Source: Octopus sinensis (Eukaryota). From it: a stretch of 64,000 nucleotides of DNA. A program made the position numbers and the translations under genes. Of this stretch, positions 5,380-63,234 are shown in pieces (within the stretch, counting starts at the first letter, position 1; every line of letters starts with the position of its first letter). The notes beneath the pieces are model-generated. The model was not told where the DNA came from. It ran no database searches and saw nothing but the letters and a program-made list of their open reading frames with translations. The stretch is from the NCBI RefSeq assembly GCF_006345805.1, contig NC_043001.1:89590001-89654000 (forward strand). Direction: 5' to 3'.

Positions 5380-5704
5380 CATACAGATAAGAAAGTAATA
5401 TTTTGAATGTAGTATAGTTGTGAAAACAGCAGAAAGGTTGGGTATTTTACATTTATATGACAGAAAAAGTTGTCAGCAGACAGCCGCAGGATTCAAACCC
5501 ACACCTCTTAGATACCAGCTGAGTGCTCTACCATTAAGCTAAACTGCCTGTTGACAACCTTTTTAGTCATATAAGAGTAAAATATCCAATCTTTCTGCTG
5601 TTTCCACAGCTATACTGTATTTGAAATATTACTTTCTTGTCTTACGATACACATTTGACGCTTCCAAAAACAAACAAAAAGATGTTTGTTTACATATGTT
5701 GTTG
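5380..5704. mobile_element. Foldback insertion with tRNA-like loop and 15-bp flanking direct repeats
   Basis: CAATAATGAATGTAT at 5365-5379 and 5705-5719. Inverted arms at ~5385-5483 and ~5544-5641. Confidence 0.7.
5478..5548 (-). pseudogene. tRNA-like sequence (anticodon GGT, Thr-like), probably a pseudogene
   Basis: GGCAGTTTAGCTTAATGGTAGAGCACTCAGCTGGTATCTAAGAGGTGTGGGTTTGAATCCTGCGGCTGTCT folds as a cloverleaf. A box TAGCTTAATGG, anticodon loop CTGGTAT, T loop TTTGAAT (decayed TTCGAAT), one anticodon-stem mismatch. Confidence 0.7.
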
Positions 5705-52344: not shown

Positions 52345-52552
52345 TGTGTGTGTGTGTATGCGTTGGTGTGTCTGTGTTTGTCCCCCACCAACATCGCTTG
52401 ACAACCGATGTCGGTGTGTTTACGTCTCCGTAACTTAGCGGTTTGGCAAAAAAGGCGATAGAATAAGTATTAGGCTTACAAAGAATAAGTCATGGGTCGA
52501 TTTGCTCGACTAAAGGCGGCCACAGTCAAATGACTGAAACAAGTAAAAGAGT
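52124..52552 (+). mobile_element. SINE family A, remainder of the copy split by the Tx1 insertion (head at 50841-50871)
   Basis: CACATGGTTCCGGGTTCAGTTCC continues the head GCTGTGTGGTAAGTAGC found before the LINE. Confidence 0.8.
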
Positions 52553-53374
52553 ATATATTTAATATTTATATATTTTTTCGATGGCAATGTTTTCCATATA
52601 TAAATGCTTTCTCAAATAAAATTACTCTCAATTTTGAGACTCTGACAAAACCACAGTGATACTGAACATGCACTGAACTCTGGATGCATTGTATCTCATA
52701 GCAGAAACAAATAAAAACAGTAGGAAATGTTTAATTTATCATAGCGTCCTCCACCTGAGCGTGTCTGCAGGACCCAATTTGAACAAATCTGTCTAATTGG
52801 CTTAAAACCGGCCCTGTTTAGGCATACACACACAACTGTACCCTCTCCCAACATTGTTTACTCATAACTTTCAAGAAAATAAATAATTTTTAATGAAACT
52901 TTTTGCAAATACCTTTCAGATGATGTTTATTTCGGAACCTAATCTTAAAAACAATAAAAAACAATTTTGGCGTATACATACTTGATACATCACTATTTTT
53001 TCAAAAGTTCAACTTTCATGTTACAGATACAGGCGCAGGCGTGGCTTTGTGGTAAGACGTTTTCTCCTATGTTCACTCACAATGCATGGCACCTTGGACA
53101 AGTGTCTTCTACTACGGCCCCGTGCCCGCCGACCAAAAAGCCTTGTAAGTGAATTTGGTTGACGTAAATTGAGAGAAGTAGGTCATTTATATATATATAT
53201 GTACATATATAGCCGAAATTGCGAAGATAATCTGGTACTCGACCGAGGAAAGAAAACTTCGAATGACCCATCCGTGTTTTCTTTGTATCGTTTATCTGGA
53301 TGTTTTGTTGTCTCCACCTAAATATCCGGATGTTTTGCGCTCTTGTCCCATTTTGTGTGTGTAGATATATAAGC

Positions 53375-53870
53375 TAAGGATTAAGGTTGTTGAAAAGCCA
53401 GGCAACCCTATCAAATCTATAATTGGTAGAACCTATCCTTTTAGTAGAACCCCCTGTACGGATAAGTACTGTACTGTATGTAGATTTAGCCCACAAACAA
53501 ATTGTAAAGCCAGAAATGTAGTCTATAGTATTGTAAAGCCAGAAATGTAGTCTATAGTATAAGATGTATAGAGGGACGATGCAGTACCAAGACAACGACA
53601 TACGTAGGGGAAACGACAAGAAGCATAGGAGAGCGGGTGAATGAACATTGGAGACAACTCAAGGAAGGTAAAAGCTCATCGATTCTGTATCAACACGCCG
53701 AACAGGAACACGGGGGATCAATCAACAACATAGAAATTAAAATATTGTCCATACATAGAACAGATGCAACAATCAGACAAATTACAGAAGCTACACACAT
53801 AATAGAAAATAAACCTAGCCTGAATAGAAAACTAGAATGGAACACTAACACACACCACAACATATAACGG
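53375..53870 (+). mobile_element. Penelope-like GIY-YIG endonuclease fragment
   Basis: CTDKYCTVC...NCKARNVVYSI..CIEGRC...TYVGETTRSIGERVNEH...SILYQH...RQITEA..I...KPSLNRKLEW. Frame broken by a 29-bp tandem duplication at 53501-53558. Confidence 0.85.
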
Positions 53871-55076
53871 TAGAGGATCCCGAAAACATAATAAATACAC
53901 AGATAAATAAACAAATAGAAATGAATAACTATATATATATATTTTTTGGATTTATTATTATTATTACTAGTATTGTTGTTATACATACATACATACATAC
54001 AAGCATATGTAATGATAATAATAATAAAGGGATGTAAACACATGAACAAAATAAGAATAAACAAAAACAACAACAACAAAAACAAATTACATGAACATAT
54101 ATACTCTTTTACTCTTTTACTTGTTTCAGTCATTTGACTGCGGCCATGCTGGAGCACCGCCTTTAGTCGAGCAAATCGACCCCGGGACTTATTCTTTGTA
54201 AGCCCAGTACTTATTCTATCGGTCTCTTTTTGCCGAACCGCTAAATTACGGGGACGTAAACACACCAGCATCGGTTGTCAAGCAATGCTAGGGGGACAAA
54301 CACACACATATACATATACACGCATATATGAGTACAGGACACCAAAAAGGACGTCGAACACAATGAGAAACGAAAACATAGACACAAACCAAAGGAACTG
54401 GACATTTATTAAAAACAGCAAAAAAATAGAATACAGGACAGTTAACAAGGAAAAACCCCTTCTTCAGTCGCTAAAGCTTTCATCTACTCTACGTTTCGAA
54501 GGATAAAAGCGAGACGTATCTTCGACAAGAAAACTTTCCTTCCTGCGAGAAGCAAACAATTAAAATTCTGAGATCTTTTCGCAGAGGGGTAAAAAATAGT
54601 AACAGGACAGTAACGACAGTGCAAATTGTAAACAGTATAAGACAGAACAAGGAAAACAAGATAAGAAGGGCTGTTGACGCCGAACGAAAAAAAGTATTGC
54701 AAACGCAGAATTTTTTATGGACGACGAGCGGAGGAAAAAGAGTGTCCTCCATTACCTTGAAAGAGCCAGGCGAGAGAGACAGCAGCGGAAGTGACGTCGC
54801 GGGTGAACGACGGAAAGGGGGGAGGAGGAGCAAGAGAAAGGGGAGGAGAAGGGGAATGGCTGCGAGGAAACCATGAAGAATGGAGAGGGAGAGAGAGAGA
54901 GGAAGAGACAGGTTAAGTAGAGGATAAGGAAAACAAAGAATGAAGGCTGAGAAAGGGATGGGACAGAAAGGGTAAGAGTGCGCGTGAGAGTTAATATCAA
55001 GAACAAAAACTTGATATAAAGAACAATCTTAATTAAGGGGGTGCGTGCGTTTCATCATATAATATATTAATAAATA

Positions 55077-55114
<38 letters not shown>

Positions 55115-55720
55115 ACCGGAGTAAACACATAAATGCGAAACAAGGTGGAAAAAAGAGTACTCAAATACCAGGGGTAGAGTAATATGCTTTATTTAAAAGC
55201 AGCAGAAATTCAGGTTTTGTTGAATTTCTGCTGCTTTTAGGTAAGTATATATATATAATTTTTAATGTATCGACCGGTTTCGCAATCGCTATTCATGATA
55301 TAATGTTTAATTTATATGAATATATATTTTTTCTTAAGAAGAAATTTGGTCCATGTAGTTTGTAATGAAATTCACGAGTGAATGATTTTACAAAACTTGT
55401 AAAATCATTCACTCGTGAATTTCATACACATACAATGTTTCATATAAATTAAACACTATATCATGAATAGCGATTGCGAAACCGGTCGATACATTAAAAA
55501 TTATATTATAACCATGTAAGTGTGCGTATTTTTCCTTTTTTTATTTTCTTATTTACAATCCACCACGTGGGGACAACTGAAATTCCTCTTTTCTGTTACT
55601 ACTACTATATATATATATATATAACGGGAAGGTTTACGAAAATAAACAAAAGACGAAGGCAGGTGGAGTACAAACAAACAAATGTATTAGTATGGCGCTC
55701 AGGAATAGAAATAGAACAAG

Positions 55721-55758
55721 TCTTTTACGTTTCGAGCCTACGCTCTTCGACAGAAAGA
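55721..55758 (-). ncRNA. Minimal type I hammerhead-like motif (A6U variant core)
   Basis: TCTTT CTGTCGA A GAGC gtag GCTC GAAA CGT A AAAGA. Confidence 0.55.
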
Positions 55759-55966
55759 TACACAGAAAAGAAACAAGGAGAGAAAAAATGCGTGTAGGAG
55801 CTAACGGTCTATCGTCAGTAAAGCATGAATTCGAAAGAGAAACACGCTCTAAATCTATAGAGCAGTAGAGTAATGATAATTAGATAGTTATGGCCGGTCT
55901 GAAGAGACGCTGTAAAACTAAGCGCTTTATGAACGTGAAACTCTGGGTAACCTCACAGACCAGCCA

Positions 55967-56046
<80 letters not shown>

Positions 56047-56137
56047 ATCTATCTATCTACCCACCTGTCTGTCTGTCTAGATGCGCGCGCGTGTGTGTAT
56101 ATATATAGTATGTGTTATTATATATATATATATATAG

Positions 56138-56169
<32 letters not shown>

Positions 56170-56216
56170 AAACAAGTCAAGATAGAAAATGCTAAAATAA
56201 TTATTAAAGAACATTT

Positions 56217-56254
56217 CAGTACCGGTTTCGGTCATTTTGAGACCTTTTCAACTG
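56217..56254 (-). ncRNA. Minimal type I hammerhead ribozyme (U3-A8 covariant core)
   Basis: CAG TTGAAAA GGTC tcaaaat GACC GAAA CCGGT A CTG. Confidence 0.65.
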
Positions 56255-56385
56255 TAACGATTGAATAATTAAATTTAGAAAAATTAAAAGAAAAGTTTTT
56301 TTAAAGGAATATTTGTATAGTGTTCAAATATAAGTGGCATTCTGCCTTTCTCTGTCTCCCTTGTTTGCACTTGTGTATATATATA

Positions 56386-57489
56386 CATATCACCCTCCTC
56401 ACTGGCACCCATCATCGACCCTATCGCATCATCAACTCCTTCACCTGCACCTCCAGCAATATTATCTATTGCGTCTCTTGCTCTCTCTGCCATTCCCTGT
56501 ACATCGGACAAACGGGACGCCGCTTGGCTGACCGGTTCGCGGAACACCTTCGTGACATCCGCCTTGCGAACGACACACCTGTCTCACGCCATTTCCGCTC
56601 CACCGGTCACTCCTTGCAACACCTGTCTGTGTTCGGTTTGTCCTTACACAGAGGCCATCAGGATTCCCGTTTGCGCCGTGAACAGGAATTAATGTTCTCT
56701 CTTCGCTCTTATACGCCATTCGGTCTCAACTCTCCCCCCCCTCCTCATCTAACCACCTCTCCCCCTCCTCATCTAACCTCCCCCGACCCATACTTCTCTT
56801 CAGTCCTTCGTCCTTTCACCCCTACTCCCCTTCCCTTCTTCCCTCTTTCTCCCTCCCTCCTTCCCTCTTCCCTCTTTCTCTCTGCTCCCTCACTCCCCTT
56901 CTCTCTCTCTCCCCCTCTCCCTCTATCCTCCCTCCTCCTCTCCCCTCCTCTCCCCTCCTCTTCTCCTCTCCTTCCTTCTCCCCTCCCCCCTCCTCTTCTC
57001 CCCTTTCCTTCTCCCCTCTTCTCCCCTTTCTTTCTCCCCCTCCCCCTCTTCTCCTCTCTCTACACTACACCATACGACTTTACACATCACATCATATATA
57101 CATACACACGTCCAGACCTCTCATACGCACAAATACTCTCTCATACACACACACTCTTATGTTGGAGCGAGGTCATTTAACCCTATTATCTCCCCTAATT
57201 TCGCTCTTGCGTCTCACGTTTGATCTTTGACTTCTGGCCGAAATCAGATCGCCATGTTGATTCGCTAGCCTCTGCACGCATATTTTTTTCTCTCCTTCTT
57301 TCTGTGTTTTTTCTCTGTGTATCTTTCTGTTGAAGAGCGTAGGCTCGAAACGTTAAAGACTTGTTTTATTTATATTTCCTGAGCGCCGTACTAATACAAT
57401 TGTTTGTTTGTATTCCACCTGCCTTCGTCTTTTGTTTATTTCCGTAAACCTGCCTTCGTCTTTTGTTTATTTTCATAAAGCTTCCCGTT
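56386..57489 (+). mobile_element. Penelope-like (Neptune-type) element 3' end: GIY-YIG domain, polypyrimidine tract and pLTR
   Basis: FTCTSSNIIYCVSCSLCHSLYIGQTGRRLADRFAEH...PVSRHF...H...RLRREQELMFSL...PFGLN, uninterrupted and CpG-rich. Confidence 0.9.
57322..57359 (+). ncRNA. Minimal type I hammerhead-like motif (A6U variant core)
   Basis: TCTTT CTGTTGA A GAGC gtag GCTC GAAA CGT T AAAGA, located in the PLE terminal repeat. Confidence 0.55.
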
Positions 57490-57490
57490 T

Positions 57491-57521
<31 letters not shown>

Positions 57522-57522
<1 letters not shown>

Positions 57523-57703
57523 CAGGAGTGGCTGAGTGGTAAGTAGCTTGCTTACCACCCACATGGTTCCGAGTTCAGTCCCACTGCGTGGCACTTGGGC
57601 AAGTGTTTTCTACTATAGTTTCGGGCCAACCAAAGCCTTGTGAGTGGATTTGGTAGGCGGAACTGAAAGAAGCCTGTCGTATATATATATATGTATATAT
57701 ATG

Positions 57704-57739
<36 letters not shown>

Positions 57740-58104
57740 GTGTGTGTATATATATATGTGTGTGTATATATATATATATAATATGTGTGTGTGTGTGTGT
57801 GTATATATATATGTGTGTGGTGTGTGTATATATATACATACACACACACACACACAACACATATATTATATATATATATATTACATATATACACATACAT
57901 ATATGTGTGTGTGAGTGTGTTTGTATGTATGTCTGCGTTTGTCCCTCCAGCAACGCTTGACAACCGATGCTGGTGTGTTTACGTCCCCGTAACCTAGCGG
58001 TTCGGCAAAAGAGTCCGATAGAATAAGTTCTGGGGTTGATTCGCTCGACTAAAGGCAGTGCTCCAGCATAGCCGCAGTCAAATGACTGAAACAAGTCAAA
58101 GAGT
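57522..58104 (+). mobile_element. SINE family A with expanded internal (TA)/(TG) microsatellite
   Basis: Head CAGGAGTGGCTGAGTGGTAAGTAGC through tail GCAGTCAAATGACTGAAACAAG. Confidence 0.85.
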
Positions 58105-58370
58105 ATGCGTGTTTATGTGTCTTTGTCTTTGCGTTAGTTCCCCCATCGTCGCTTGTCAACCGTTGTTGGTTTGTTTATTCCCCCCCGTAACATAGCGGTT
58201 CGGCAAAAAGAGGTCGATAAAATAAGTACCAAACTTTAATATAAAGTACTGGAGTCCATTTGTATGACTAAACCAGTCAAAGCGGTGCTCCAGCATTGCC
58301 GCAGTGTAATGACTAAAAAAAGTAACAGATAAATTATATATATGTGTGTGTGGGTGTGTGTCCATGCGTG

Positions 58371-58404
<34 letters not shown>

Positions 58405-58802
58405 GTGTGTGCGTGTGTGTGTGCGTGGTGTGTGTGTGTGTTTAGTACTCTCATGTTTTGAGTTCCGTTTTTTCTTGATTGTTCTAGCAAGTCTATATAT
58501 ATATATATATACATGGTGTGTGCAAGTATAGATCCTGTTATACATATAAGGAGATGGATAAATAGATTCAGCTCTCCAAACATAGATATAGTATAATTCA
58601 GAGGTTATATACGTATTCCATAAGCATTAATACTCTATCATACACAAATTCCGCATATTATGTGTACAGTGTGTGTGTGTGCTTCTGTATGTGCGTGCGT
58701 GTGTATGTATGTATGTGTGTGTGTGTGTTCATGTCTTTCATCAGGTCGTTAACTCCATGAGTCATGTCTATGATTATGAGCCTCGTTCGGTCAACTACTT
58801 AC

Positions 58803-59058
58803 CTGTACACCATGATAGGACCGTTCGAGTAGAGCTGACTCAGGGTTAAAAAAGAAGCAACAAAATTCAGTGAATGCTTTCGCTGTCGCTCTGGTCGTTT
58901 TGCCGGCTTTAAAACCATCCACCGCAGTAGTCACTTCTGTAGTTGATATTTTTAACCTATCCCTGCCTTTACTTGTTACTTTCTTTCTCAGATCCTCTGT
59001 TTTGAAAGCCTTTTCGTATTCTTCCTCACCGCTTTTTATTATCTCTGACACTGCACAC
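58803..59058 (-). other. Candidate orphan exon
   Basis: Consensus donor CAG|gtaagt, a weak acceptor tag|G, and 85 open codons of non-repetitive, CpG-retaining sequence. Confidence 0.3.
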
Positions 59059-59220
59059 CTACATAACTCTAAATACCCATAAGCACAATACCTCCACCAC
59101 GTCCACATACGCGCACACATATATGGACACAAATGCTCACAAACATATACACATAAACACTCCACGTATACACAAGCATACACACACTTATATACAAAAA
59201 GGCCCCCGACACAGCTACAA

Positions 59221-59296
<76 letters not shown>

Positions 59297-60453
59297 CTAC
59301 CCAACATACTCACACCTACAAAAATAGATGTATCCCGACACAACTACAAGCACATTCACACATCCACACTTATGCCAACACATACAAGCACACAACCACA
59401 CACGTATATACTCAAACCACCCCCACACGTACAAACACCAACACCCACAAACGCACAAACACCCTTACACATCCACAAATACATACATATACACCCCGCA
59501 CACGCAAACACAGGATCAGACACATGTACAAACACCACCCAGCATCCCGACACTACACATTTATATGCTACACACATCACTCTGTGTAATGTATTCCATA
59601 CCCAATCTGTTTTTAGTTTTTCTTTTCGCTATTTTCCTTTCATCTCTCAAATTTTTATCTTTTTACATCTCGTTAACTTTCATTTTCATTTTCATAATTC
59701 AGTTTCTCCCGTTACTCCTTTTTTTGTTTATCTCTCTCCCCCTTCTCATCCTCCTTCTCTCTCTTATCTATAGCTTTGTCTCTTCCTCAAACCTCTGTTC
59801 TTCTATCTTCTAGTGTCCCTTCTCTAATCTGACACTCTCCATTCTTTCCCCCCTCTTTTATTTTCTTTCTGTCTATTTTCTATAAGTCTATTCAATAGTT
59901 CTGTCTCTTCCTCAACCTCCTCTCTTCTATCTTCTTCCAGTGTCCCTTCTCTATTCTAAAATTCTCCATTCTGCCACACCTTTCTTCCGTCACTTCACCC
60001 TCTTTTTTGCTGTTTTTTTCCTCTCTCTATCTTTGTAACTCTTCTACAAACCCAACTCTCTTTCTTGTAACTCTTCTCTACCATCATTCTGATTCTTTCT
60101 CACATTTCTCTGTACCTCTCTATCTCTCTCTTTCTTTCATCTCTTCGTACTTCTCTCTGTATCTCTCTTTCTTCTTCTTCTTCTTCTTCTTCTTCTTCTT
60201 CTTCTTCTTCTTCTTCTTCTTCTTCTTCTTCTCTCTCTCTCTCTCTCTTTCCCTCATTCTTCATTCTATTCTAGTCTCTTCTCTTATCTTCTATTTTACT
60301 CTCCACCAGCTCTCTACATGCCACTCTCTTCGTCACTCATTCATTCGTCTAATCTGTTTGTATGTGTATGTTTGCATATGTGTATATCGTGTGTTTATAT
60401 ATAGTTGTGTGTTCATGTGTATATATGTTTGTGCTTTTATATATTTGTATGTT

Positions 60454-60530
<77 letters not shown>

Positions 60531-61373
60531 TGTATATATAAATGTTTTTATAAATCTTTGTATATGTATGTATGCATGTATATGTTTGTGTACGTATATA
60601 TGTATATATATGCATGTATATGTATATCTTTTTGTGTGTATATATATATCTATATATATTTGTGCATGTGTATCTATATTTTGTGAGTGTGTATTTATAT
60701 GTATATATATTTCTTTGTATGTGCTCCATCCTATTTATATACTACCTTGCTTCTTTCAAGGATGTCTGCTTACTCTGTAACCGATACTTTCTTTCTTTCT
60801 TTCTTTCTTTCGTTCTCAATCTTAGCCGTTCCAAGTCTCCTATACCTCTCTTTATTTTCATTATCTCGCCGATGCGTTTTTATTTGATGTATTTTTTTCT
60901 CTTTTCCTAACGCCTTTTGTCTTTCGTCACATTTCGACCCGAAGTGCCTCTCATTCATTTCACCATCCTTCAGTTTGTTAATATCTCTCAATTGTTCTGA
61001 ACATACTAATCTATACTCTAAAGTCTCCTTAAAGAATTTACCCTGAATGAGATTTTACTCACTTTTTCACTTCTCTTCTCACTCTCTCTCATTTCCCGTC
61101 TTTCTTTTTGAACGTATGTTTTTATATGTATGCCCAATGAGGTACGAAGAATATATATATATATATTTAAGTAGGTGAATGAATTATTCTATGTTTATCG
61201 TCAGCATGGAAAATTCGTTTAAGCGAAACCTGGGTAGCAAATTCACGTCAGAAAACACGGTTGAAGCGACCTGTCAAGGGTAGAAACTCCGGGTTCATGT
61301 GTAGAAATTTGTGTGTTGTATATGAATAAATGAAAGAATGGAGTCGAACGAAGATGTTAACAAAATTCCTTTA

Positions 61374-61455
61374 CTCTCGACACATGTTTCGAAGACAGCA
61401 TCTTCTCATTCCAAAGGAATAAAGGGTGCATTATGCAATCTTCTCATCAGGAAAG
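61374..61455 (-). ncRNA. Type I hammerhead ribozyme with canonical core
   Basis: CTTTC CTGATGA GAAGA...TCTTC GAAAC ATGT GTC GAGAG: stem I CUUUC/GAGAG, long stem II, GUC cleavage triplet. Confidence 0.75.
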
Positions 61456-61605
61456 AAAGGGAGCCTCTCTCGACAACAAGACAAAAATTTCGATGATTGC
61501 CTACATTCCTTTGGAATGAGAAAATGCTGTCTTCGAAACATGTGTCGAGAGTAAAGGAATTTTGTTAACATCTTCGTTCGACTCCATTTTTCCCCTCTCC
61601 CCTTA

Positions 61606-62101
61606 CCTCCCCCTCCCCCTCTTCTCCTCTCTCTACACTACACCATACGACTTTACACATCACATCATATATACATACACACGTCCAGACCTCTCATACG
61701 CACTAATACTCTCTCATACACACACACACCACACACACACACACTCGTCTCATACACACACACACACTCTTATGTTGGAGTGAGGTCATTCAACCCTATT
61801 ATCTCCCCTAATTTCGCTTCTTGCGTGCTCTCATGTTGGATCTTTGACTTCTGGCCGAATCATCGCCATGTTGATTCGCTCTAGCTTCTGCACGCATATT
61901 TTTTTCTCTCCTTCTTTCTGTGTTTTTCTCTGTGTATCTTTCTGTTGAAGAGCGTAGGCTCGAAAACGTTAAAGACTTGTTTTATTTATATTCCTGAGCG
62001 CCATACTAATACAATGTTTGTGTTGTATCTCACCTGCCTTCGTCTTTTGTTTATTTCCGTAAACCTGCCTTCGTCTTTGTCTATTTTCATAAAGCTTCCC
62101 G

Positions 62102-62103
<2 letters not shown>
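61606..62103 (+). mobile_element. Second near-identical copy of the Neptune-type PLE terminal repeat (non-coding)
   Basis: Collinear with 57034-57489, including the hammerhead-like motif at 61937-61975. Confidence 0.85.
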
Positions 62104-62173
<70 letters not shown>

Positions 62174-62796
62174 CTGTCCGCGCGCGCACACGTGTAAACA
62201 ATTAAGTTTATTCGTAGAGATAACAACAACAATGAATATGAATTGTTTTCCTTTTATTTACTATATACCAACAAAAATTAGACCTCTTCCGATTTTATTT
62301 GTAGAATAATTCAGTAATAATAATGCCACAGTACGTGATTTAAAGACACAGGTTCAAATCGGACAGAATTCAGATAGAATATAGCAAAGTTTAAGGTAAA
62401 GTTTGTAGATGTGCTTTCAAGAATGAATATTCATATTTTCGTGGTTTACATAGTCAATTGAATAATGTGTTGTAATAGATAGAAAGTCTTATTGAAAATG
62501 TACTTATATGCGTATGCGTTTATAAAATCTAGACATTTACAAGTAAATAACGGGCAATTATAAATAAAAGTTAGTACAAGCAGAAGTTCTATCGAGGTAT
62601 GGCAACGGTTGAGGTTTACTGCCAGCAAGGAATATAATGAAAGGAGACAACTTATTGATGGATACTAGTGATAGATAAAAGAGAGTTAGAAATTGACTAG
62701 TTTACTTCTTAAATAGCTAAAAAAAATGGCTCACAGTCTACAATACACATAACGACAGTGATGCAAAAATATCTCTGCATAAAATCGCTACAAATG

Positions 62797-62830
<34 letters not shown>

Positions 62831-63234
62831 TGTATGTATGTATGTATGTATGTATGTATGTTGTATGCATGCACGCATGAATGTACATACACACATAGGT
62901 ATGCACATGCATCTCTATACACATGCGTACATACATGTGGGCAAAATCATTTTTACCTTTCTTTCTCTGTATTACATACCCGTGTGTGTGTGTAAACTTG
63001 TTATCTGTAATTTTTACGGGTCATTATTGCAAAACTTCTAAGTCATAGTCGTAATGTGTTCCTATCAAATAAAATATCAAGACACCTCTTTGGCATTGGA
63101 GCATTTTTTCATTTGATTTTCTTTGCTCTTCTCTAAAACACCAACACATGCATGCACTCGTCCTCTGCACACGCGTACTTATATATGTGTGTGCGAGTGT
63201 TGTATATGTATATGTGTGTATGTATTAAATTATC

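What the first reader, a model, noticed from the sequence alone, without database searches (positions are those of the whole stretch)
53200..62110. Cluster of Penelope-derived termini with hammerhead motifs of three core types
Seen within ~9 kb: two different GIY-YIG fragments, five complete hammerhead-like folds (55721-, 56217-, 57322+, 61374-, 61937+), several half-motifs ending GAAAC-palindrome-GTH, and multiple inverted repeats. Most abut (TA)n tracts. Established: PLE terminal repeats carry minimal type I hammerheads with palindromic stem III that act as dimers, and non-autonomous retrozyme-like elements exist in animals. Inference: a (TA)n-targeted hotspot of several ribozyme-bearing non-autonomous families, including non-canonical cores that standard models may miss.
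Basis: partly seen in the sequence, partly recalled or inferred. Interest (0 to 1): 0.75.

Follow-up and report, generated by a model that had tools for sequence, protein, structure and literature searches.

The report
Penelope retroelement tails with variant hammerheads
This 9-kb stretch is a pile-up of broken tail ends of Penelope-like jumping genes inserted into TA repeats, each keeping that group's small hammerhead-ribozyme motif; this is an ordinary, known arrangement, except that one hugely abundant family carries a U at a core position normally held by A, which would likely weaken self-cutting.

Summary
All five hammerhead-like folds sit at the stated coordinates, both GIY-YIG fragments are real, the inverted repeats exist, and the tails abut (TA)n.

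[quoted passage not shown] They are not separate non-autonomous families.

- **Canonical core:** 61374-61455(-) reads CUGAUGA with a 41-nt insert in helix II.
- **U3-A8 core:** 56217-56254(-) has this pair, a variant already printed for Schistosoma PLEs.
- **Possible A3-U8 core:** 55268-55300(-) and 55459-55491(+), a weak candidate.
- **U6 core:** 55721(-), 57322(+) and the damaged 61937(+) are one family reading CUGU-N-GA-A.

U6 is the fixed state of at least 19,153 genomic copies, against 358 with A6. Across four subfamilies whose flanks differ by 37-68%, the 28-nt core differs only at N7 and H17.

Rfam reports none of these motifs above threshold.

This is a known kind of element, and this scan has met it often in other genomes. 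The conserved U6 core is the one new feature. Whether it cleaves is untested, and I put that at about 0.2.

The parts
53370..54103 (+). Fragment of PLE family 'A'. It holds a GIY-YIG endonuclease remnant (ORF pieces 53365-53550 and 53529-53867), broken by a 29-nt tandem duplication (53503-53531/53532-53560). It is cut off at a SINE-like insert and does not reach its own tail.
   Evidence: Pfam GIY-YIG at 21.8 bits. The linker CTDKYCTVC is read from the ORF. The family gave 4,627 first-look candidates, and 11 copies match only 53370-54103 and run on about 330 nt further than the window copy. BLASTP against the F2 endonuclease gives E 3e-8.
55247..55395 (-). PLE family F4 tail, the left arm of a head-to-head inverted pair. 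It carries a possible A3-U8 hammerhead-like motif at 55268-55300.
   Evidence: Inverted repeat I13, relaxed descriptor hit, family data.
55398..55602 (+). PLE family F4 tail, the right arm. The motif at 55459-55491 reads AUGAAUA-GC-GAUU-GC-GAAACCGGUC. The tail ends at the (TA)n of 55606-55623.
   Evidence: At least 1,159 first-look candidates. AUGAAUA occurs in 24 of the 25 other copies printed. Longer copies encode a weak RT match (RVT_1 19.1 bits, below its cut-off) and GIY-YIG at 26.2 bits. The MFE does not give the hammerhead fold (z +0.09).
55624..55790 (-). fam1 tail of the C7 subfamily, about 165 nt. The U6 min-hammerhead-like motif at 55721-55758 reads UCUUU-CUGUCGA-A-GAGC-GUAG-GCUC-GAAA-CG-U-A-AAAGA. 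Its 3' end meets the same (TA)n as F4.
   Evidence: Repeats I6/I9, strict descriptor hit, subfamily analysis.
56166..56366 (-). PLE family F2 tail. The U3-A8 hammerhead motif at 56217-56254 reads CAG-UUGAAAA-GGUC-UCAAAAU-GACC-GAAACCGGU-A-CUG. Its 3' end lies at the (TA)n of 56119-56165.
   Evidence: Rfam HH9 at 21.8 bits, below its cut-off of 52. Relaxed descriptor hit. 1,963 genomic copies of the flank-anchored pattern, with UUGAAAA in 98 of the 100 listed. Longer copies encode the CGRPNCGIC linker and GIY-YIG at 23.9 bits.
56391..57490 (+). fam1 copy of the U7 subfamily, 5'-truncated at about 1.1 kb. It holds the endonuclease coding remnant (about 56391-56730), a low-complexity 3' UTR, the U6 motif at 57322-57359 (predicted cut site 57354/57355), and a 3' end at the (TA)n of 57491-57526.
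   Evidence: 40 scored copies are 98-100% identical, from 1,680 candidates. Copies show variable 5' truncation and a common 3' end. The ORF reads YIGQTGRRLADRFAEH with the CSRPRCRTC linker in longer copies. BLASTP against the F2 ORF gives E 1e-29.
61170..61503 (-). PLE family F3 tail in its long 3' form. A canonical-core hammerhead at 61374-61455 reads CUUUC-CUGAUGA-GAAGAU-[41 nt]-(A)UCUUC-GAAAC-AUGU-GU-C-GAGAG. The tail ends near the (TA)n of 61151-61167.
   Evidence: Strict descriptor hit of class C3G8/A6. The CUGAUGAG box is intact in 20 of the 29 copies printed. Longer copies carry a GIY-YIG-like ORF at 13.8 bits. Rfam does not report it.
61500..61591 (+). Inverted, more truncated F3 arm. 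It is a half-motif with GAAACAUGUGUC only and no CUGAUGA box.
   Evidence: Inverted repeat I3, 92 nt at 96%. Context of the copies.
61592..62103 (+). fam1 copy of about 510 nt. Its U6 motif at 61937-61974 is damaged by one extra A (GAAAA). Its 3' end lies at the (TA)n of 62104-62175.
   Evidence: Direct repeats D17, D19 and D20 are 91-99% identical to 57034-57463. Relaxed descriptor hit.

Best explanation
The stretch is a nest of 5'-truncated tail ends from at least five autonomous Penelope-like retrotransposon families, inserted into (TA)n microsatellites. Each complete tail keeps the family's minimal type I hammerhead motif.

**Shown**
- The families are repeated thousands of times, with variable 5' truncation and a fixed 3' end next to (TA)n.
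- Longer copies of all five families encode a C-terminal GIY-YIG, four of them behind a CX4CxxC linker. A YxDD reverse-transcriptase motif is visible in fam1 and F4.
- The hammerhead-like motif lies 50-135 nt from the 3' end, or about 200 nt in the long-form F3 tail.

**Inferred from published work on PLEs**
- Copies arise by target-primed reverse transcription that starts at an internal site downstream of the hammerhead.
- In tandem transcripts, two motifs would pair through their palindromic helix III. They would cut after H17 as a dimer, slowly.
- The window copies are inert relics.

**Core types**
- F3 is canonical.
- F2 has the published U3-A8 covariant pair.
- F4 may have A3-U8.
- fam1 has U instead of A at position 6. 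That is the fixed, old state of a superfamily of at least 19,000 copies.

I read the U6 motif as a true hammerhead descendant kept under constraint. Its cleavage is likely weak or lost (about 0.2 that it cuts detectably).

A canonical core is then not needed for these elements to spread.
For: **PLE identity**
- GIY-YIG scores above Pfam's cut-off in F2 (23.9 bits) and F4 (26.2 bits). It is weaker in fam1, A and F3.
- The fam1 ORF aligns with the F2 ORF over 286 aa, E 1e-29.
- YIDD and YLDD reverse-transcriptase motifs and CX4CxxC linkers are read in the ORFs.
- Truncation patterns. (TA)n at 3' ends. Head-to-head pairs.

**The genome holds bona fide PLE hammerheads**
- Rfam RF00163 gives 8 hits over its cut-off. 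They read GUAC-CUGAAGAG...CGAAACAUGUGUC, and those whose tail end is visible lie about 55-95 nt from a (TA)n end.
- CTGANGA-N{8,30}-CGAAACCGGTH gives 197 hits against 13 for the control pattern.
- At least 12 canonical families appear in 584 kb of fetched loci. Many of those loci were chosen by hammerhead patterns.

**fam1 architecture**
- It equals the published min-HHR consensus NNN-CUGANGA-H-G..C-GAAA-N-palindrome-N-U-H except at position 6 (Cervera and de la Pena 2014, main text parts 1-2 and supplement 2).

**U6 counts**
- 19,153 non-A6 copies against 358 A6 copies, with control patterns at 0.
- Among 100 flank-anchored rows, none has A6, 99 have T and 1 has C.
- U6 is present in 46 of 46 aligned copies from four subfamilies.
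- Within C3..H17 the majority state differs only at 57331 (N7: U, C, A, G) and 57354 (H17: U, A, A, U). Flanks differ by 0.37-0.68.

**Conserved island**
- Contigs of four runs pile up about 9-73 times deeper on 57318-57365 than beside it. Loose ends sit at 57323 and 57362. The only variant at 10% or more inside the motif is at N7.

**Published mechanism**
- Reverse transcription starts internally, and hammerhead catalytic mutants still insert in vitro (Frangieh 2024, passages).
Against: - Rfam reports none of the window's motifs above its cut-offs.
- MFE z-scores are not significant.
- Relaxed descriptor hits occur by chance at 1.55 per 64 kb.
- The conserved island is wider than the motif, about 57282-57371. 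Invariance of core bases is therefore not by itself proof of ribozyme selection.
- Stems I and II never vary within the fam1 superfamily, so there is no covariation there.
- In the MFE fold, U6 adds pairing between UGUU and AACG. That would compete with the active fold.
- The harm done by A6 substitutions is recalled from classical mutagenesis and was not checked here.
- RT evidence is weak in Pfam: 19.1 bits, below its cut-off, for one 103-aa fragment. The two fam1 RT fragments gave no hit.
- No cleavage or RNA-end data could be obtained.
Confidence: 0.82

Rival explanations
1. All the non-canonical cores (U6, U3-A8, A3-U8) are catalytically competent natural hammerhead variants. They cut PLE transcripts as dimers, so the hammerhead consensus is wider than the CUGANGA descriptors allow.
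For: - In fam1, variation among four subfamilies falls only on N7 and H17, the two positions free in the hammerhead consensus. Two changes in 28 sites landing on exactly those two has a chance of 1 in 378 (my arithmetic).
- Positions 3 and 8 stay Watson-Crick in F2 (U-A) and in its sister family F4 (A-U).
- U3-A8 is in print for Schistosoma PLEs.
- A C3G/G8C double mutant partly restores cleavage in a PLE hammerhead.
- The published searches required 'cuganga', so a U6 family could not have been found.
Against: - A6 is one of the invariant core bases, and substitutions are strongly harmful in classical mutagenesis (recalled, not checked).
- Canonical PLE min-HHRs are already barely active in vitro.
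- If loop II and the extra A are also counted as free positions, the chance figure rises to 21 in 378.
- F4's helix II has only 2 bp and its MFE does not form the hammerhead fold.
- No cleavage data exist.
Confidence: 0.2
2. One reading: the region is a hotspot of several ribozyme-bearing non-autonomous (retrozyme-like) families that use (TA)n as target.
For: - The window copies are short (about 90-1,100 nt) and non-coding or hold only ORF remnants.
- Canonical hammerheads in tandem arrays spaced about 355-360 nt apart exist elsewhere in this genome.
- Animal retrozymes are proposed to derive from PLE pLTRs (bioRxiv 10.64898/2026.07.22.740005, abstract only).
Against: - Each family has longer copies running into GIY-YIG ORFs, with YxDD reverse-transcriptase motifs in fam1 and F4, and a continuum of 5' truncation points.
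- No tandem unit-length array lies in the window.
Confidence: 0.07
3. The motifs are chance look-alikes in AT-rich repeat DNA, with no hammerhead ancestry.
For: - The relaxed descriptor finds 1.55 hits per shuffled 64 kb, and the first, looser descriptor 5.9.
- Folding z-scores are not significant.
- Four relaxed hits elsewhere in the window look like noise.
Against: - The exact-pattern controls are 0 against 19,153, 358, 6,244 and 1,963 hits.
- The motifs sit at the same place in PLE tails as Rfam-passing hammerheads of this genome.
- The architecture matches the published consensus feature by feature.
Confidence: 0.02

Closest known systems
Minimal hammerheads (min-HHR) in the pseudo-LTRs of metazoan Penelope-like elements (Cervera and de la Pena 2014, PMC4209133)
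   Same: - Type I topology with a 4-5 bp helix I.
[quoted passage not shown]
- Helix III absent or 1-2 bp with a palindromic 15.2-16.2.
- Position near the PLE end, thousands of mostly solitary truncated copies, and frequent opposite-strand pairs.
   Different: - fam1 has U at position 6.
- F3 has a 41-nt helix II insert, where the published descriptor allows a loop of 3-10 nt.
- F2 and F4 have a 6-nt palindrome, longer than 'gaaannuh'.
- None of the window's motifs would pass the published descriptor or Rfam.
U3-A8 core covariant of Cercyon PLE hammerheads in Schistosoma mansoni (same paper, about 1,300 hits)
   Same: F2's UUGAAAA core replaces the C3-G8 pair with U3-A8, with the other core bases intact.
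   Different: - The host and PLE family differ.
- Here the sister family F4 would carry A3-U8, which I did not find in the papers I read.
C-terminal EN+ PLEs with a CX2-5CxxC linker (Neptune/Nematis type; Arkhipova 2006 as cited in Craig et al. 2021, PMC8557442)
   Same: - A C-terminal GIY-YIG preceded by a CX4CxxC motif.
- Insertion bias for (TA)n.
- Partial tandem and inverted 5'-truncated arrangements.
   Different: Clade membership was not tested by RT phylogeny, and the RT was seen only as C-terminal fragments.
Animal non-LTR retrozymes (Cervera and de la Pena 2020, PMC7229834, search listing only; Li et al. 2026 preprint, abstract only)
   Same: They carry type I hammerheads related to PLE pLTRs.
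   Different: Retrozymes are short tandem non-coding units that give circular RNAs. The window holds single truncated tails of coding families.

Membership tests
PLE minimal hammerhead (min-HHR) | Type I order: helix I 5' strand, core box 1, helix II hairpin, GAAA, short palindromic helix III, U-H, helix I 3' strand | tested here: met
   Descriptor hits at 55721-55758(-), 57322-57359(+), 61374-61455(-), 56217-56254(-), 61939-61974(+) and 55268-55300(-)/55459-55491(+).
PLE minimal hammerhead (min-HHR) | Conserved core CUGANGA ... GAAA | tested here: inconclusive
   - Met by F3 (CUGAUGA).
- Not met by fam1 (CUGUNGA, U6 in 46 of 46 copies).
- F2 (UUGAAAA) fits the published U3-A8 variant.
- F4 (AUGAAUA) fits no published variant that I saw.
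PLE minimal hammerhead (min-HHR) | Extra nucleotide between 9 and 10.1, G10.1-C11.1 pair, palindromic 15.2-16.2 | tested here: met
   - fam1 has all three: the extra A, GAGC/GCUC, and ACGU.
- F3, F2 and F4 have G10.1-C11.1 and a palindrome (ACAUGU/ACCGGU) but no extra nucleotide.
PLE minimal hammerhead (min-HHR) | Location in the terminal repeat or 3' region of a PLE | tested here: met
   The motifs lie 50-135 nt from the shared 3' ends of the families (about 200 nt in the long-form F3 tail). Longer copies of those families encode GIY-YIG, plus a YxDD RT motif in fam1 and F4. I did not examine whether the same motif also sits in a 5' repeat.
PLE minimal hammerhead (min-HHR) | Site-specific self-cleavage (as dimers) | not testable with these tools
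   No listed run is on record as RNA and all are held as contigs, so RNA ends cannot be read.
Rfam Hammerhead_1 (RF00163) | Score at or above the gathering cut-off of 34 bits | tested here: not met
   No RF00163 row even at E<=10 over 52500-63000 or 61300-61620. The same model does find 8 hits over its cut-off elsewhere in this genome.
Penelope-like elements, C-terminal EN+ with Zn-finger-like linker | C-terminal GIY-YIG endonuclease preceded by CX2-5CxxC | tested here: met
   - PF01541 scores 23.9 bits (F2) and 26.2 bits (F4), both above the 22.6 cut-off.
- It scores 21.8 (A), 14.7-16.3 (fam1) and 13.8 (F3), all below it.
- The linkers CSRPRCRTC, CGRPNCGIC, CGRPNCGTC and CTDKYCTVC are read in the ORFs.
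Penelope-like elements, C-terminal EN+ with Zn-finger-like linker | Telomerase-like reverse transcriptase upstream in the same ORF | tested here: inconclusive
   - Only C-terminal RT pieces were fetched.
- YIDD (fam1) and YLDD (F4) motifs are present.
- RVT_1 scores 19.1 bits, below its 29.6 cut-off, on a 103-aa F4 fragment. The two fam1 fragments gave no hit.
- No phylogeny was made.
Penelope-like elements, C-terminal EN+ with Zn-finger-like linker | Insertion bias for (TA)n, with 5'-truncated and inverted or tandem copies | tested here: met
   Inverted pairs are seen.
Animal non-LTR retrozymes | Short non-coding units in head-to-tail tandem arrays, each with a type I hammerhead | tested here: not met
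   No such array lies in 52500-63000. Arrays spaced about 355-360 nt apart occur elsewhere in the genome.

The most novel reading that the evidence does not exclude
CUGU-N-GA is a natural, selectively maintained and still self-cleaving hammerhead core. At least 19,000 copies in this genome would then be active-type ribozyme genes that every CUGANGA-based descriptor and Rfam model has been blind to. A6 would not be an absolute requirement of the hammerhead fold.
Probability: 0.2. Interest if true: 0.65.

Novelty: new variant of a known kind. Interest (0 to 1): 0.4.

Why it matters
The cluster itself is ordinary. PLE tails with minimal hammerheads at TA repeats are well described, and this scan has noted them many times on other genomes.

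What is worth a bench test is the U6 core. It is the fixed state of the most prolific PLE lineage in this genome, and its pattern of change mimics hammerhead constraints.

- **If it cleaves:** the accepted hammerhead core consensus is too narrow, and genome censuses of ribozymes under-count.
- **If it does not cleave:** it is a natural experiment. [quoted passage not shown] That would fit the in vitro result that hammerhead mutants still insert, and the success of hammerhead-less Naiads. The conserved motif would then have to serve some other role.

Tried and rejected
1. **A6 copies as ancestors.** I first read the 358 A6 copies as ancestral canonical lineages, because 12 of 12 examined had flanks only 72-88% identical to fam1. 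Flank-anchored retrieval overturned this. The same flank types carry U6 in 99 of 100 rows. On a rough tree whose bootstrap had not settled, the A6 copies of the G7 and A7 types sit scattered among U6 copies. Only L114/L118/L123 and L115/L121 form separate A6 groups. The polarity of A6 against U6 stays open.
2. **The 61374 fold.** I first read its core as GGAAUGA and called it degenerate. Copies elsewhere showed the real CUGAUGA box 45 nt upstream.
3. **RNA evidence.** No RNA holder is listed and all runs are held as contigs. The second shows depth and loose ends only, with no molecule ends.
4. **Thermodynamics.** No z-score is below -1.89.
5. **Rfam at E<=10.** Only microsatellite-driven miRNA noise and one sub-threshold HH9 row.
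6. **Literature on A6U.** The search for 'hammerhead ribozyme' with 'A6U' gave nothing relevant. Lunse et al. 2017 (PMC5785218) is not held. It may describe further core variants, so 'U6 is not in print' rests only on searches and on Cervera 2014 with its supplement.
7. **Element A.** I asked whether it owns the Rfam-type hammerhead 1 kb downstream in L043. The family's shared similarity ends about 330 nt past the window copy, so no link is shown.
8. **Earlier scan notes.** None exist for this genome.

Full report
**Observation.** The window is C5:89590001-89654000 of a 2.72-Gb genome. I wrote a descriptor for the published minimal PLE hammerhead. It asks for:
- helix I
- a 7-nt box with U4, G5 and A9 fixed
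- an optional extra base
- helix II
- GAAA
- a palindromic A15.1..U16.1
- H17
- the helix I return strand

The strict setting requires helix I of at least 4 bp and helix II of at least 3 bp. It finds three hits in 64 kb, against a mean of 0.25 in 40 dinucleotide shuffles: 55721-55758(-), 57322-57359(+) and 61374-61455(-).

The relaxed setting adds 56217-56254(-), 61939-61974(+), 55268-55300(-) and 55459-55491(+), plus four AT-rich hits elsewhere that look like noise. That makes 11 hits against 1.55 expected.

Half-motifs of the form GAAAC-palindrome-UH number 10 in 53200-62110. The whole window holds 17, against a mean of 9.2 per shuffled window.

Rfam finds only a tRNA at gathering thresholds. 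At E<=10 it gives one HH9 row of 21.8 bits against a cut-off of 52, at 56200-56265, among microsatellite-driven miRNA noise. It reports nothing at 61300-61620. MFE z-scores for six motifs run from -1.89 to +0.09.

**What the pieces are.** Each motif-bearing piece is the 3' end of a highly repeated family.

| Family | Window piece | First-look candidates | Identity of scored copies |
|---|---|---|---|
| fam1 | 57290-57500 | 1,680 | 98-99% |
| F2 | 56167-56366 | 1,578 | 98-99% |
| F3 | 61505-61591 | 1,315 | mostly 97-99% |
| F4 | 55439-55530 | 1,159 | mostly 96-99% |
| A | 53370-54103 | 4,627 | about 90-92% |

Copies share a 3' end and start at many different 5' points. This is the signature of target-primed reverse transcription.

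Longer copies run into ORFs:
- fam1 has YIDD, the linker CSRPRCRTC and YIGQTGRRLADRFAEH.
- F2 has CGRPNCGIC and GIY-YIG at 23.9 bits.
- F4 has YLDD with a weak RVT_1 match (19.1 bits, below its cut-off), CGRPNCGTC and GIY-YIG at 26.2 bits.
- F3 has a GIY-YIG-like ORF at 13.8 bits.
- The fam1 ORF aligns with the F2 ORF over 286 aa, E 1e-29.
- The window's endonuclease fragment 53529-53867 aligns with F2, E 3e-8.

The 3' ends adjoin (TA)n in 29 of 29 fam1 copies. The same holds for 11 of the 12 F2 copies that keep the end key, out of 29 examined, and for 20 of 28 F3 copies. The other 8 F3 copies have a longer 3' form.

Head-to-head inverted pairs are common in F2, F3 and F4. All of this is the published picture of C-terminal EN+ PLEs with the CX2-5CxxC linker and microsatellite bias (Craig et al. 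2021, passages). The window copies are therefore truncated tails of autonomous elements, not separate non-autonomous families.

**The hammerheads.** The genome holds canonical PLE hammerheads.
- RF00163 gives 8 hits over its cut-off. They read GUAC-CUGAAGAG-...-CGAAAC-AUGU-GUC-GUAC, and those whose tail end is visible lie about 55-95 nt from a (TA)n end.
- The pattern CTGANGA-N{8,30}-CGAAACCGGTH gives 197 hits against 13 for the reversed control. Some sit in arrays spaced about 355-360 nt apart.
- At least 12 canonical families turn up in 584 kb of fetched loci. Many of those loci were picked by hammerhead patterns, so this is not a density.

For F3, copies elsewhere showed that the true core box lies 45 nt upstream of where I first looked. 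The motif reads CUUUC-CUGAUGA-GAAGAU-[41 nt]-UCUUC-GAAAC-AUGU-GU-C-GAGAG. The box is intact in 20 of the 29 copies printed. The window's minus-strand copy has it at 61374-61455. The plus-strand arm is truncated and keeps only the 3' half.

F2 reads CAG-UUGAAAA-GGUC-UCAAAAU-GACC-GAAACCGGU-A-CUG. This is the C3-G8 pair replaced by U3-A8. Of 1,963 genomic copies, 98 of the 100 listed carry it. The variant is in print for Schistosoma Cercyon PLEs (Cervera and de la Pena 2014), and this scan noted it before in another genome.

F4, whose protein is close to F2's, reads UAUC-AUGAAUA-GC-GAUU-GC-GAAACCGGU-C-GAUA, which would be A3-U8. AUGAAUA occurs in 24 of the 25 other copies printed. But helix II has only 2 bp and the MFE does not form the fold. 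I rate it a weak candidate.

**The U6 family.** fam1 reads UCUUU-CUGU-N-GA-A-GAGC-GUAG-GCUC-GAAA-CG-U-H-AAAGA. It matches the published consensus NNN-CUGANGA-H-G..C-GAAA-N-palindrome-N-U-H feature by feature, except for U at position 6.

Genome counts:
- CTGBNGAAGAGCNNNNGCTCGAAAC gives 19,153 hits. Of the 100 listed, 99 have T and 1 has C at position 6, and all four N7 bases recur.
- The A6 form gives 358 hits. Controls for both patterns are 0.
- A pattern anchored only on the flanks, CTGTGTYCYTTT-N{28,38}-AAGACTTTT, gives 6,244 hits. None of the 100 listed has A6.

I aligned 46 copies from four subfamilies: U7 (n=11), C7 (n=5), A7 (n=15) and G7 (n=15). U6 is present in 46 of 46. Within C3..H17 (57327-57354) the majority state differs between subfamilies only at 57331 (N7: U, C, A, G) and 57354 (H17: U, A, A, U). 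Mean differences between subfamilies are 0.37-0.68 at 57212-57281 and 57442-57511. The anchor columns 57315-57326 and 57356-57364 were fixed by how the A7 and G7 copies were found. The interior was not.

Independent of my patterns, contigs of four public runs laid at 90% likeness or more pile up about 9-73 times deeper on 57318-57365 than on the neighbouring bins. Loose ends sit at 57323 and 57362. The only variant at 10% or more inside the motif is at N7. Summed contig depth is a crude measure, and the runs are only guessed to be RNA.

On a rough tree, the A6 copies with G7 and A7 flanks lie scattered among U6 copies. Two small A6 groups stand apart. Which state is ancestral is open.

**How it most likely works.** This is inference from print. 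PLE transcripts are tandem. Reverse transcription starts at an internal site downstream of the hammerhead, which sets the 3' ends of genomic copies. The endonuclease prefers AT-rich DNA. Hammerhead catalytic mutants do not impair insertion in vitro (Frangieh et al. 2024, passages). Min-HHRs lack a stable helix III and cleave, weakly, only as dimers. The window copies are solitary, truncated and, in one case, mutated, so they are relics.

For U6, classical mutagenesis makes A6 changes strongly harmful (recalled, not checked here). In the MFE fold, U6 also adds pairing between UGUU and AACG that would compete with the active fold. On the other side, the change pattern mimics hammerhead constraints: two changes in 28 sites, both on the free positions. 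That has a chance of 1 in 378, or 21 in 378 if loop II and the extra A also count as free. I commit to 'a hammerhead descendant under constraint whose cleavage is weak or lost', and give about 0.2 to real activity.

**Comparison and novelty.** The cluster, the TA targeting, the inverted pairs, the min-HHR architecture and the U3-A8 core are all known. This scan has 149 notes on PLE min-HHRs in at least 9 other genomes.

I did not find a U6 core, or an A3-U8 core, in what I could read. That covers searches and Cervera 2014 with its supplement. Lunse et al. 2017 could not be read. The published descriptor demands 'cuganga', so such a family could not have been retrieved by it.

My verdict is a new variant of a known kind, of moderate interest.

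Noticed in passing
G000 C1:182078659-182079400, C4:158033749-158034647, C2:188530504-188531247, C3:138197537-138198053 (rows): Canonical hammerheads reading CUGACGAG-AGGC..CCUC-GAAACCGGUC occur in head-to-tail arrays spaced 355-360 nt apart, each with one inverted copy at the upstream side. This is the layout of animal retrozymes or PLE pLTR arrays.
   Followed up: no
window 57392-57441: A second conserved block lies downstream of the fam1 motif. Differences between subfamilies are 0.13-0.18, against 0.36-0.65 further on. It has its own depth peak in the laid contigs and overlaps a direct repeat of ACCUGCCUUCGUCUUUUGUUUAUUU. It is a candidate for the internal reverse-transcription start or a protein-binding site.
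   Followed up: partly
window 61170-61333 and loci L128, L130, L132, L133, L135, L140, L147, L153, L155: F3 has two 3' end types: a short one ending at (TA)n, and a long one with about 170 nt more. F4 likewise has a short and a long end. This recalls the optional PLE 'tail' that lies between two reverse-transcription start sites.
   Followed up: partly
one fetched locus, not tracked (row of class G3C8/A6): A single motif reads UUUGUCA-GUGAACA-G-GUCGC..GCGAC-GAAAAUAUU-U-UGACAAA, with a G3-C8 swap and a 7-bp helix I. It could be a third kind of 3-8 covariant or a chance hit.
   Followed up: no
loci L187-L195, about 2345-2400 in oriented coordinates: The tail of the family-A element, absent from the window copy, holds a hammerhead-like stretch CUGAUGC-G-GUCAC..GUGAC-GAAAG. 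It has C at position 9 and no palindromic helix III.
   Followed up: no
window 54095-54321, 57917-58120, 58150-58330, and tRNA-like 53040-53185 and 57527-57680: Several copies of SINE-like repeats lie here, some of them tRNA-derived. They sit between the PLE tails and also next to (TA)n, so the TA tracts collect more than one kind of retroposon.
   Followed up: no
window 5478-5548 (-): A tRNA gene, the only Rfam match over its cut-off in the window (48.6 bits).
   Followed up: no
G000 C1:44606292 and C1:44718563 (rows): Two F2 copies share CUGAAAA (C3 with A8, unpaired) together with a loop one base shorter. This may be a small subfamily that carries a mismatched 3-8 pair.
   Followed up: no
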